Assembly: GCA_965285935.1 (NCBI GenBank)
Contig: OZ260665.1
Span: 45,570,001 to 45,634,000, forward strand
DNA length: 64,000 nucleotides
Reading direction: 5' to 3'
DNA from: Ophelia neglecta
Lineage: Eukaryota
How positions within the stretch are numbered: the stretch's first letter is position 1; every line of letters starts with the position of its first letter. The position numbers were made by a program. Below, piece after piece: positions 60,001 to 63,000 of the stretch.

Positions 60001-63000
60001 CTTTGTATAAAGCTAGTTGACCCCACAGCTCATAGTCTTCACATTTGCATATCTTGGCACAGAACGCAGGGACTCGGACTCGTTTCTCTGTAGGCTGGAA
60101 CTTTGGGCGGTTTGGGGAGGTGTTCGAGAGAGATAATACAAATGTTTACCGTGTGCCGGCGGGCCCGGGAGTAGGTGGCTAGGACCTTGTGTCAGCGGTC
60201 TCGAAGGGAGGCGGGCCTGGCACGCCGGGGTGGAGGGGGTGCAGTCCCCCCGGCCCGAGATGATGGTGATGGTGGTAGTGGTGGTGGCGGAAGGGTGGGC
60301 CGTGGGGGTGGCCTCCCTTGGACGGTTCGTCCAGGCTCACTACTGTGTCATCATCGCTAGATTCACCAAAGGAGCTCACCAGTTGCTGGAACGGGGGCTG
60401 GTCCAGGTCGCTCTGCATGGCGAACTCGCTGAGAGCCTTCCACGGCGCCTGGTACTGCTGCACTTCAACGGGGTTGGGGTTCATGTTAGGCGGGGGCTCA
60501 TGTCTGACCGGGCTCGACGCTACCATCGGGACGCCCTGAAAACAACAATTATCATATTGAGTACCTTTGATCACCAAGAACATATGGCTTTAAAAAGATA
60601 TCTTAAGCATGCGTGTAATGTTTAGAACGTGAATATTTAGGAAAAATAGTTTTTAATAATATTTATAGTTCTTTAATTGTTGTAAATCAAGATACTGGAA
60701 AGGCAGAAATATATTGTTCTTGCATTTGAAAGCAAAGCAAATTAACACAAACGAAAGCAATACACTGCCTGTAGCAAAGCAAAACCTGCATTCTACCAGA
60801 AAACCTACTGCATGGTCTTAAGTTTAAACTAAAAGCAGAGACAAAAAAGTGTCCAATACCAATGCAGGCCTTTATGGCCTCAGTCTTTGCTGCATATAGA
60901 GTTCACATTAGAAACTGATTGCCACCAAACGTAACATCAAACCTTCCTCGTTTTTATCGCCACATAATAAGATGCAGTCGAGACCTTCATTGAGACAAAA
61001 GAAGGGCAAGCGGAGTCTGCATTCTACATACAATAATTCTTTACGGCGAAAATGGAAGCTTTACTGAATTGAGATCCAGCTTAATTTTCTCCAGACTGCT
61101 GCTAGCCGCTCAGACAATTGAGTCGCTGAGATTTGTGGAAGCTCGGGAAGAACTGTAACGATTGTCACACAAGGACAAACACAGACAGGTGTGCTGATCA
61201 CACGGTATTAGCAAGCCGTTCCTGAACACCATCTGGCGCAATGTGCCGACCCTCGTCACCTCACCGTGTCGTCTGCCCCGCATGTATACAAGGTCGCAAG
61301 AGCAATTTCTTCTAGCATCAAGGAAAACTGATGGATTTCACAATTATAAGTATCCGCACATTAATTTTAAGGTTAGCCTAATGCGAATAAGAGTATGAAT
61401 TTGGCAATGACCGGCTTTAAGAGCTCGCAGCAAAGACCACTGAAGCGTAGACATAGATGAGCGTAGGCCGCATAAAGAGATCGATAAAAACGTGCGAAAC
61501 AGGTCAGGCGACGAGCTTGGTGACTGGAGGTTAATCCTATACACACTGTGTAAATCCCTGAGTCTACTCACTCAGACACGCCGCGGATAAAATGGGACAT
61601 CTTCTCCTTGGCGAGCGAAAACATGTGAACCAACACAAACACCCAGGAAAGGGTATAGTGTGTCGAGGGACAGACCCTCGGATCACATCTTACCCGGAGG
61701 CAAGTAACATCAAACCAGGACACATCATCTCTATTGATTGATCTTAAACGTGCTAGAATAGACACTGATACACCTGTGGATCGGGATTTGGCAGGAGATG
61801 CTGCAAACGCTATAGCCGGCAGATGTTTTCCGGTTGTATGTAGTGATAGGTATTGTGGGATTGAATTGGCTGCCTAGGCTAGGACGATCTGCTCCGATAT
61901 CGGCTGACTCAGACGGGCTACATGCAGACACGGCCGGCTAGACCGATCGATGTCTACTAATCCATCTCCCAATATTACCTCACCTTCAACAACCCCAGAG
62001 CTATAAAGGGGTTTAATGAAAACCCAAGCCAGCTATTCACCAATTTAACGCTTTGGTGGTGAAGGAGGTTGGCGCGGGAAAAAGGAAAAACGAAGGGAAA
62101 GCTAGTTTCAATAAAACATATAGGGCCTATGGCTGGTAGAAAACTTGGCAAGCTGCAGTGCATGGAGAGGAAGATTCAATCCATAAATTGAAATTTTGGC
62201 ACCTTTCATTGATTTGGCGATGAATGAATGGATTTCGCTTCAAGGACTTCGGAGAAGATAGTGGCCTCGGTATTTACAAGAACCAAAAACCGCCAGAGTG
62301 AAAACCACAAAACATATTGTGTCTGTACCCGTTATGATAATCAAAATGGGTCATCTAAGTGAGAATGAATGAACAGCTCTAAACACAAAATGATCCTTAA
62401 ATGACCCTTTGAATTGTCAAAAGGATTGGCACACTGTTCGTTTGACGTTCTGTGGCGAATCGACGTAGTGTAGGGGTACATGATCATCGCTCCAACTTGG
62501 GTGGTTTGTCCGATATATTTGCACAGTTGGACGCAATTGGGCGATATGTTGGCAGACAAAGGGGGAATAAAGGAATCTAAGATCGCCAGTCAGATCATTA
62601 AAGCCGCCGCTAAAATGGACGATGAAAATGGCAACAAAAGATGCATCCAACACGTGTACAGGCCATTTAGGTAGACGGCTTTAACAAGATTAACTCAGAT
62701 TATACACTCAATACTTCCCAGTTCATATAAAACGGCAGCTAAATACATGAATAGCTGTTGACACTGGATATTAAAATAAAGTAAAAGCAATCATTTGCAC
62801 TGCTTTGAGGTGGGTCCCAAATCTGTAAGGCTCAGGCATTGATACTCATATCAAAGAGCTGAACCCTACTGAACAGGAAAAGCGAAGTCTACTGCTTGGA
62901 TTCTGTCCATATTATTTGCCCAAATCATTCAATAAGTAAATTTAGTTCTGATCGCGTTACACGCTACACTGCTTTAGAGAAAGTCGTTGTTGTCCTCAAT

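What the first reader, a model, noticed from the sequence alone, without database searches (positions are those of the whole stretch)
60179..60379. Second, His/Pro-rich Islet C-terminus in the start of the last intron
Seen: skipping the donor after FQQL leaves 66 open codons. They begin VSSF (parallel to VNAF of the spliced exon) and contain an acidic patch (ESSDDD), an HHHYHHHHH tract with mixed CAC/CAT codons, and a Pro/Gly tail, all in GC-rich sequence. Known: His tracts in developmental transcription factors can target nuclear speckles, and this junction directly follows the Lhx3-binding region. Inference: one splice decision swaps two unrelated effector tails on the same LIM-HD core, giving a possibly undescribed Islet isoform switch.
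Basis: partly seen in the sequence, partly recalled or inferred. Interest (0 to 1): 0.7.

Follow-up and report, generated by a model that had tools for sequence, protein, structure and literature searches.

The report
Conserved alternative tail of Islet gene
Reading past one splice site of this worm-like animal's Islet gene gives a second protein tail whose first 20 residues are conserved in annelid-like, mollusc and ribbon-worm sequences, so it is probably a real but unstudied isoform.

Summary
After exon 5 of a minus-strand Islet gene (60380-60535, ending FQQL) the donor GTGAGC is followed by 66 open codons and TAG (60179-60379). They hold [19 protein letters not shown] with mixed CAC/CAT codons, and a Pro/Gly end, at 65% GC.

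Openness alone is weak: 21% of shuffles stay open. The comparative evidence is strong. Many read-through frames from other animals carry the same island directly after FQQL: V-S-x-F, an acidic run, then V-V-x-L-D-E.

Named predicted isoforms ending in this tail exist for Mytilus (two species), a chiton, a snail and a ribbon worm. So the isoform is already in databases. Six literature searches found no paper describing it.

The conserved part is the acidic-hydrophobic island (60320-60379), plus a short end motif (T-A-D-x-x-C/S). The His/Pro stretch between them varies, although His runs recur in annelid-like relatives.

Best reading: a choice between splicing and read-through or intronic polyadenylation swaps the canonical end (…TPSELSSPLSQ, exon at 55850-56017) for this tail on the same LIM-homeodomain core.

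Still missing are RNA evidence for this species and any DNA from relatives. The function of the motif is inferred, not shown.

The parts
60380..60535 (-). Islet exon 5 (52 codons, GVPMVASS...PPFQQL), holding the Lhx3-binding-type peptide
   Evidence: It is 85% identical to Capitella teleta Islet. Residues 1-32 match the ISL1 peptide in PDB 2rgt.
60374..60379 (-). Exon 5 donor GTGAGC (phase 0), whose use or non-use decides between the two tails
   Evidence: Read in frame it gives Val-Ser, the first two tail residues.
60179..60379 (-). Read-through coding extension: 66 codons plus TAG (stop at 60179-60181)
   Evidence: Homologous tails occur in other species.
60320..60379 (-). Conserved N-terminal island of the tail, [20 protein letters not shown] (V-S-x-F, acidic run, V-V-x-L-D-E)
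   Evidence: F56 is invariant, and V53 and V66 are 90% or more conserved, in 41 sequences. This stretch lies within the 84% identity over residues 4-72 to P0324.
60260..60286 (-). His tract HHHYHHHHH (CAC/CAT mixed) inside a variable His/Pro/Gly linker (60209-60319)
   Evidence: His runs recur at other positions in relatives P0002, P0306, P0317, P0326, P0331 and P0336.
60182..60208 (-). C-terminal island PFETADTRS, matching the ...[A/T]-D-x-x-C ends of relatives
   Evidence: Eleven of 23 listed tails end [A/T]-D-x-x(-x)-[C/S/Q]. The nearest relative, P0324, ends GPPPYLATDTKC.
59845..59850 (-). Candidate poly(A) signal AATAAA, 329 bases after the tail's stop
   Evidence: This is weak: AATAAA occurs 125 times in the window on both strands.
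55850..56017 (-). Canonical last exon (VNAFENH...PNSVGSDCTLPGTPSELSSPLSQ, stop included) behind the acceptor ttgattgcag
   Evidence: It is 71% identical over its last 31 residues to Capitella Islet.

Best explanation
The stretch is a real, selected alternative coding 3' end of a lophotrochozoan (annelid-type) Islet gene.

When the exon 5 donor at 60380|60379 is used, the mRNA joins the last exon at 56017. The protein then ends in the canonical module ...PNSVGSD..TPSELSSPLSQ.

When the donor is not used, translation runs on for 66 codons. This could happen by intron retention or, more likely, by cleavage and polyadenylation inside the intron. The resulting protein keeps the upstream Islet exons, which lie beyond this window and in relatives encode the LIM domains and homeodomain. 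It also keeps the Lhx3-binding-type peptide. It loses the canonical end and gains three parts:
(a) a conserved acidic-hydrophobic island, [13 protein letters not shown];
(b) a fast-evolving His/Pro-rich disordered linker;
(c) a short conserved end, T-A-D-x-x-S/C.

Shown: the open frame, its coding-like composition, conservation of both islands in other species, and named predicted isoforms with this tail in molluscs and a nemertean.

Inferred: that this species expresses it, that the switch is a competition between splicing and intronic 3' end formation, and that the island is a short docking or activation motif. I rate the acidic activation-domain-like and SUMO-interaction-like readings as about equally likely. 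Either would change cofactor use, while the His tract may alter subnuclear location.
For: Frame and composition: 66 open codons, 65% GC against a 40% background, GC2 lowest.

Conservation from the single-sequence search: I fetched 24 hits of the search because their match ran into the tail. Fourteen carry the island straight after FQQL.

Conservation from the profile search: the 44 best new hits all carry it by eye. The strict regex missed 3 variants. F56 is invariant in 41 of 41 sequences, and acidic-run lengths differ by whole codons.

Nearest relatives: P0324 is 84% identical over residues 4-72, across the junction. P0316 is 73% identical over residues 4-86.

Distal tail against shuffles: P0324 31/2000, P0002 25/2000, P0317 36/2000. 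The end motif is shared by 11 of 23.

Named full-length proteins ending in this tail: Tubulanus polymorphus, Liolophura sinensis X2, Mytilus galloprovincialis X2, M. californianus X3 and Physella acuta X1, plus a partial Sinanodonta woodiana protein. They are 4 of the top 5 of 112 in the profile search of long proteins.

Transcript-like evidence: unnamed complete or near-complete coding sequences with Pfam LIM and homeodomain matches end in the tail on contigs of only 1328 and 2236 bases (P0155, P0153). Contigs that short must be spliced upstream, so they look like transcripts.

The canonical exon and a good acceptor are also present in the window. Both ends are therefore available.
Against: There are no RNA data for this species, and no DNA of relatives could be fetched. 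There is therefore no dN/dS and no check of the donors in relatives.

Openness alone is expected in 21% of shuffles.

The relatives are mostly frames called on anonymous contigs. Only open frames are recorded, and the ranking profile contained the tail, so the counts are biased upward.

The Capitella teleta model continues differently after FQQL (VRPFFYS...), without the island. Among 23 named lophotrochozoan proteins, neither an annotated tail nor a matching tail frame was seen for 7 species (Capitella, Owenia, Tegillarca, Octopus, Lingula, Gigantopelta, Patella). Elysia was unclear.

The His/Pro part is poorly conserved. P0316, P0022 and P0114 were no better than shuffles.

The donor matches the consensus well (G|GTGAG), so the tail form may be a minor product.

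The only AATAAA nearby is 329 bases downstream and is not significant in itself.
Confidence: 0.72

Rival explanations
1. It is a chance open frame in a GC-rich intron start. On this reading the conservation reflects a non-coding function, such as a splicing enhancer or silencer or a conserved intronic element, and not a protein.
For: 21% of shuffles stay open. Pfam finds nothing. Sequence next to a regulated donor is often conserved (general knowledge).
Against: Conservation is seen at the protein level across phyla, with whole-codon length changes in the acidic run and in the linker. The end motif just before the stop is shared. Named gene models and transcript-like contigs end in this tail. 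Rfam finds nothing in 55000-64000.
Confidence: 0.06
2. It is a relic. The tail was an ancestral alternative end that this species no longer expresses, and the frame is still intact only by recent descent.
For: There is no RNA evidence here. The Capitella model lacks the island, so loss does seem to occur in annelids. The terminal residue is Ser where many relatives have Cys.
Against: All 66 codons are intact, coding-like GC is retained, and the identity to P0324 continues across the junction at 84% over residues 4-72. Neutral sequence at that distance should have picked up indels.
Confidence: 0.1
3. It is a non-productive retained intron. The read-through RNA is made but serves to lower the output of the canonical mRNA (nuclear retention or decay), and the encoded tail has no function of its own.
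For: The donor is strong. If the whole 4.4-kb intron is retained, the mRNA would carry a very long 3' UTR. Detained introns are common in regulators (general knowledge).
Against: This does not explain the amino-acid conservation of two islands or the conserved stop position.
Confidence: 0.1

Closest known systems
Predicted read-through Islet isoforms of other lophotrochozoans: Mytilus galloprovincialis X2, M. californianus X3, Liolophura sinensis X2, Tubulanus polymorphus, Physella acuta X1
   Same: In all of them the tail starts directly after FQQL/FQHL. It opens V-S-x-F (Physella opens V-S-N-I), then has an acidic run and V-V-x-hydrophobic. The canonical ...SSPLSQ end is absent.
   Different: In four of them the stop comes 1-6 residues after the V-V motif. 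Physella has a 100-residue linker before the motif. The window has the motif first, then 46 more residues (His/Pro linker and T-A-D-x-x-S end), as in unnamed annelid-like relatives. No named annelid protein with this tail was found among 112 long hits.
Vertebrate ISL1 alpha/beta isoforms (Ando et al. 2003, as cited in PMC8365108; passages read)
   Same: [quoted passage not shown]
   Different: ISL1 beta lacks an internal stretch (residues 255-279) and keeps the same C-terminus. Here the whole last exon is exchanged.
Lhx9a/b alternative C-termini (PMC9310833; passages read)
   Same: A LIM-homeodomain factor gains a different C-terminal sequence through alternative processing, and the function of that sequence is open.
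   Different: The Lhx9 variants truncate the homeodomain. Here the exchange begins after exon 5, downstream of where relatives carry the homeodomain.
Insect Islet (tailup-type) canonical C-terminus ...DSTDSYVTYLESDDSLPASP
   Same: A position matrix built from 31 distinct tail motifs finds this insect stretch in 12 of 12 named insect proteins at p of 0.01 or less against shuffles. It has an acidic or Ser-rich lead, then V-x-Y-L-E.
   Different: In insects it is constitutive, in the normal last exon. The 12 insects are related, so this counts as one observation. Homology is not shown.
Histidine-repeat nuclear-speckle signal (PMC2644819; abstract and section titles seen)
   Same: It is a His run in a developmental transcription factor.
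   Different: The longest pure run here is 5 His, with 3 more separated by a Tyr. The paper's section title names 6 as sufficient, in human cells. The tract is not conserved in position among relatives.

Membership tests
Islet (ISL) LIM-homeodomain genes | Peptide of the Lhx3-binding type C-terminal to the homeodomain | tested here: met
   Exon 5 is 85% identical to Capitella Islet. Residues 1-32 match the ISL1 part of PDB 2rgt at E=7e-4.
Islet (ISL) LIM-homeodomain genes | Two LIM domains and a homeodomain | not testable with these tools
   No such frame appears among the 151 frames of 35 or more codons in 54000-64000. The upstream exons must lie beyond the window's end.
Islet (ISL) LIM-homeodomain genes | Canonical last exon ending ...TPSE[L/M]SSP.S. 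| tested here: met
   55850-56017. It aligns with 16 named lophotrochozoan ends.
Lophotrochozoan read-through Islet isoform (as predicted in Mytilus, Liolophura, Tubulanus, Physella) | Tail contiguous with exon 5, starting V-S-x-F | tested here: met
   F is invariant in 41 of 41.
Lophotrochozoan read-through Islet isoform (as predicted in Mytilus, Liolophura, Tubulanus, Physella) | Acidic run followed by V-V-x-hydrophobic | tested here: met
   The window has [12 protein letters not shown]. There are 31 distinct versions of this motif in 35 gap-free rows.
Lophotrochozoan read-through Islet isoform (as predicted in Mytilus, Liolophura, Tubulanus, Physella) | Stop within a few residues after the V-V motif | tested here: not met
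   The window continues for 46 more residues, as do unnamed annelid-like relatives. It is a long-tailed variant.
Lophotrochozoan read-through Islet isoform (as predicted in Mytilus, Liolophura, Tubulanus, Physella) | Expressed as mRNA with upstream exons spliced | not testable with these tools
   There are no reads for this species. The only evidence is indirect: short contigs with a whole coding sequence in a bivalve-like relative (P0155, P0153).
Composite terminal exon (intronic polyadenylation) | Poly(A) signal and cleavage site downstream of the alternative stop, inside the intron | tested here: inconclusive
   AATAAA at 59850-59845, 329 bases after the stop. The hexamer is common in the window (125 matches).
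His-repeat nuclear-speckle signal | Uninterrupted run of His (5 or more in the catalogue; 6 shown sufficient) | tested here: inconclusive
   The tract is HHHYHHHHH, with a longest pure run of 5. Criteria come from PMC2644819 (abstract and section titles). Localisation was not tested.
SUMO-interaction motif (definition recalled, from no call) | Hydrophobic core of four residues with one free position, flanked by acidic or Ser residues | tested here: inconclusive
   VVSL flanked by SSDDD and DE fits by eye. Relatives have VVCY, VVTF and VVYL, which fit less well. Binding to SUMO could not be tested.
Vertebrate ISL1-beta-type isoform | Internal deletion within the region after the homeodomain, same C-terminus | tested here: not met
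   Here the last exon is replaced and nothing is deleted.

The most novel reading that the evidence does not exclude
The acidic V-V-x-L island may be an ancient protostome Islet docking motif. It would be the same one that insects carry constitutively as ...DSYVTYLESDD. Lophotrochozoans would have placed it under splice control for several hundred million years. One RNA-processing decision in a terminal-selector transcription factor would then switch between a phospho-regulated canonical end and a cofactor-docking end. Annelid-like lineages would have added a His-rich linker that changes subnuclear partitioning.
Probability: 0.2. Interest if true: 0.65.

Novelty: new member of a known kind. 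Interest (0 to 1): 0.45.

Why it matters
Islet is a core selector gene for motor neurons, heart and endocrine cells, and its C-terminal region governs partner choice. A second C-terminus kept across annelid-like forms, molluscs and nemerteans would mean that isoform choice is part of how Islet works in a third of animal phyla. Expression and knock-down studies in Platynereis, Capitella, Crepidula or Mytilus that use probes or antibodies against one end would then miss half the picture. It also offers a compact 12-residue motif to test for a binding partner. For genome annotation, it flags an isoform that no named annelid protein among the 112 long Islet hits carries.

Tried and rejected
Complex prediction: Capitella LIM1-LIM2 with the window's tail and four zinc ions gave no verdict, score 0.00. 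This is evidence neither for nor against binding. The pair was also cross-species.

Paralogy of the tail with the 5' part of the canonical last exon: a profile comparison of 36 tails against 17 canonical ends gave P=0.071 and probability 0.8%. This is not supported. The motif matrix hit only 2 of 17 lophotrochozoan canonical ends at p<0.05, and in another register.

Database scans:
- Pfam found 0 families for exon 5 plus tail, for the antisense frame and for the last exon.
- Rfam found 0 matches in 55000-64000.
- The PDB gave only the Lhx3-binding peptide (query residues 1-32). The other matches ran over the query's His/Pro stretch and I disregard them; the one printed aligns it to a terminal His run of the chain.

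Literature: searches found no paper on a lophotrochozoan Islet alternative end. One search found PIASy-Isl1 binding, which maps to the homeodomain and not the C-terminus.

A second in-frame GTGAGC inside the motif as the reason for the V-V-S conservation: rejected as a general cause, because many relatives have V-V-C or V-V-T.

Not done:
- I neither built nor searched the joined exon 5 plus exon 6 product. The exons were handled one by one.
There is therefore no codon-level test.
- The bacterial, phage, plasmid and E. coli collections, the ESM Atlas and structure prediction were not used.
- No supplementary files were consulted.

Full report
**What is in the window**

The window is about 40% GC and gene-poor. 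It holds one run of 194 N far from this locus, which I left untouched.

On the minus strand, 60380-60535 encodes 52 residues, GVPMVASS...PPFQQL. This is 85% identical to the corresponding part of Capitella teleta Islet. Its first 32 residues match the ISL1 peptide solved in complex with Lhx3 in PDB 2rgt.

The canonical last exon lies 4.4 kb downstream, at 55850-56017, behind the acceptor ttgattgcag. It ends ...PNSVGSDCTLPGTPSELSSPLSQ and is 71% identical to Capitella over its last 31 residues.

No LIM or homeodomain frame lies between 60600 and 64000, so the upstream exons are outside the window.

The best named matches are lophotrochozoan: a nemertean, molluscs and annelids. I do not take the contig for human. 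I handled the exons one by one and neither built nor searched the joined exon 5 plus exon 6 product.

**The observation**

After the donor GTGAGC (60379-60374) the frame stays open for 66 codons and ends in TAG at 60181-60179. The 66 codons hold:
- VSSF at the start;
- ESSDDD;
- HHHYHHHHH with CAC and CAT mixed (60286-60260);
- a Pro/Gly-rich end.

GC is 65%, as in exon 5. The GC-rich block runs without a break from about 60140 to 60535 and then falls to background.

The open frame alone proves little, because 20.5% of 20000 shuffles of the 300 bases after the donor stay open for 66 codons. The V-S start is also dictated by the donor.

**Comparative evidence**

I sent exon 5 plus tail (P0001) to a search of every protein in the representative library. 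It returned 261 hits at E of 0.001 or better, with 150 listed. Many are short frames called on anonymous contigs that begin at the Met of exon 5 and read through the junction. That makes them a ready-made sample of what follows FQQL in other species.

I fetched the 24 hits whose match reached into the tail. Fourteen carry the same island directly after FQQL: V/I/L-S/N-x-F, a run of 3 to 7 Asp/Glu, then V-V-S/C/T-hydrophobic-D/E-E/D. The other ten break down as follows:
- two spliced mollusc proteins;
- one named sea-spider protein;
- three arthropod-type read-throughs without the island;
- one snail-like frame that has the motif only at its far end;
- three unnamed vertebrate-type rows, which I set aside because they could be human.

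A profile of 14 such sequences found 502 near-length hits, 120 of them listed. I fetched the 44 best new ones and all carry the island by eye. A strict regular expression missed three variants: P0315, P0336 and P0339.

These counts are biased upward. Only open frames are recorded, and the profile contained the tail. The pattern is nonetheless what coding sequence gives:
- In 41 aligned sequences the Phe is invariant.
- The two flanking Val positions are conserved in 90% or more.
- Acidic runs and inserted Gly/Pro stretches differ by whole codons.

The nearest relative, P0324, is 84% identical over residues 4-72, straight across the junction.

**Anatomy of the tail**

The annelid-like relatives show three parts.

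1. The first 20 residues (60379-60320) are the conserved island.

2. The middle is a fast-evolving linker rich in His, Pro and Gln. It beats composition-preserving shuffles only for the closest relatives: P0324 31/2000, P0317 36/2000, P0002 25/2000. It does not for P0316, P0022 or P0114. The 0/2000 for P0306 is inflated by His runs. His runs of 5 to 9 recur at different places in several lineages.

3. The last residues form a second small island. Eleven of 23 listed tails end [A/T]-D-x-x(-x)-[C/S/Q]. The window ends [11 protein letters not shown] and P0324 ends PPPYLATDTKC.

A conserved stop position is hard to explain without translation.

In molluscs, nemerteans and Platynereis-like frames the stop comes 1-6 residues after the V-V motif. 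In heterobranch snails a long linker precedes the motif, which again sits at the very end. The His/Pro extension with the T-A-D end therefore looks like an addition in one annelid-like group.

**Is it expressed anywhere?**

Named full-length proteins that end in this tail exist for five species:
- Tubulanus polymorphus;
- Liolophura sinensis (isoform X2);
- Mytilus galloprovincialis (X2);
- M. californianus (X3);
- Physella acuta (X1).

There is also a partial Sinanodonta woodiana protein. Canonical-ended Mytilus proteins exist in sister species.

Two unnamed coding sequences with Pfam LIM and homeodomain matches end in the tail and sit on contigs of 1328 and 2236 bases (P0155, P0153). Contigs that short must be spliced upstream, so they look like transcripts.

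For 10 of the 18 named species whose listed protein does not end in this tail, an unnamed frame has an exon 5 that is 93-100% identical and carries a motif-bearing tail. Examples are Solemya, Lineus, Haliotis, Platynereis, Littorina and Biomphalaria. None was seen for Capitella, Owenia, Tegillarca, Octopus, Lingula, Gigantopelta or Patella. The Capitella model continues differently after FQQL, so the tail is not universal.

No named annelid protein with the tail was among the 112 long hits.

**How it probably works**

Both ends are available in the window. There is a consensus-like donor with a good acceptor and conserved last exon, and there is an intact conserved extension.

The simplest mechanism is competition between splicing of the last intron and 3' end formation within it, or plain intron retention. 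An AATAAA lies 329 bases after the tail's stop, but the hexamer is common here, so this is only compatible.

The product keeps everything encoded up to FQQL. It exchanges the Ser/Thr-Pro-rich canonical end for the acidic-hydrophobic island, the linker and the end motif.

What the island binds is unknown. By eye it looks like an acidic activation motif or a SUMO-interaction motif. That definition is recalled and comes from no call. The complex prediction I ran gave no verdict and is listed only under things tried.

A matrix built from 31 distinct tail motifs finds the insect canonical stretch ...DS[T/A]DSYVTYLESDD in 12 of 12 named insect proteins at p of 0.01 or less. It finds little elsewhere: 2 of 17 lophotrochozoan canonical ends, 1 of 7 invertebrate deuterostomes, and none of the 3 named vertebrates or the sea spider. 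The insects are related and count as one observation. It is a lead that the motif is older than the isoform.

A profile comparison of tails with canonical ends was not significant, P=0.07.

**Comparison with what is known**

The vertebrate ISL1 alpha/beta pair differs by an internal deletion (residues 255-279) and shares one C-terminus (passages of PMC8365108). Lhx9a/b gain a new C-terminus but truncate the homeodomain (passages of PMC9310833). Neither is the same event.

His repeats as speckle signals rest on human-cell work (abstract and section titles of PMC2644819). The tract here has a longest pure run of five and is not fixed in position among relatives.

Six literature searches found no paper describing this alternative Islet end. 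These searches cover open-access papers and preprints only.

**Verdict**

The finding is real and more than chance.

The isoform is already present as computer-predicted models in molluscs and a nemertean. The window therefore adds an annelid-type, long-tailed member of a kind that is annotated but uncharacterised.

Two things remain open. There is no expression evidence in this species. There was also no nucleotide-level test, because the contigs of the relatives could not be fetched.

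Noticed in passing
window 60335-60340 (minus strand): A second GTGAGC lies in frame inside the conserved motif, at the V-S of TVVSL. If used as a donor it would add 13 codons ([13 protein letters not shown]) in phase 0 to the canonical last exon. Many relatives have V-V-C or V-V-T there, so it is not a conserved donor.
   Followed up: partly
related proteins P0002, P0017, P0314, P0112: In these annelid-like frames the first tail residue is Ile or Leu instead of Val, so no GT can sit at the homologous donor position. 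In those species the tail may be constitutive, or the donor may have moved. Their DNA could not be fetched.
   Followed up: no
window 60182-60184, and the ends of relatives: Many tails end in a terminal Cys (…DTKC, …DASC, …NARC; Mytilus …YDQC), where the window has Ser. A conserved last-residue Cys in a transcription factor tail is unexplained.
   Followed up: no
named proteins P0181 (Platynereis) and P0158 (Capitella): Both annelid proteins carry 21-28 extra residues between FQQL/FHQL and the x-x-S-F-D start of the last exon. This hints at a further cassette or alternative donor in annelid Islet genes.
   Followed up: no
window 60137-60625 (plus strand): A 162-codon open frame runs antisense to exon 5 and the tail. 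Pfam finds nothing in it. It is most likely a by-product of the GC-rich coding strand.
   Followed up: partly
window 1742-2424 and 15525-16367: Two long minisatellites: a 23-base unit in 29.7 copies and a 28-base unit in 29.9 copies. The first produces the repetitive open frames listed at 1728-2475.
   Followed up: no
window 1-55000: Only 12 frames of 130 or more codons lie in the roughly 55 kb downstream of Islet. Three are minisatellite frames and one spans the N run. The stretch looks like a gene desert, but I did not search the frames.
   Followed up: no
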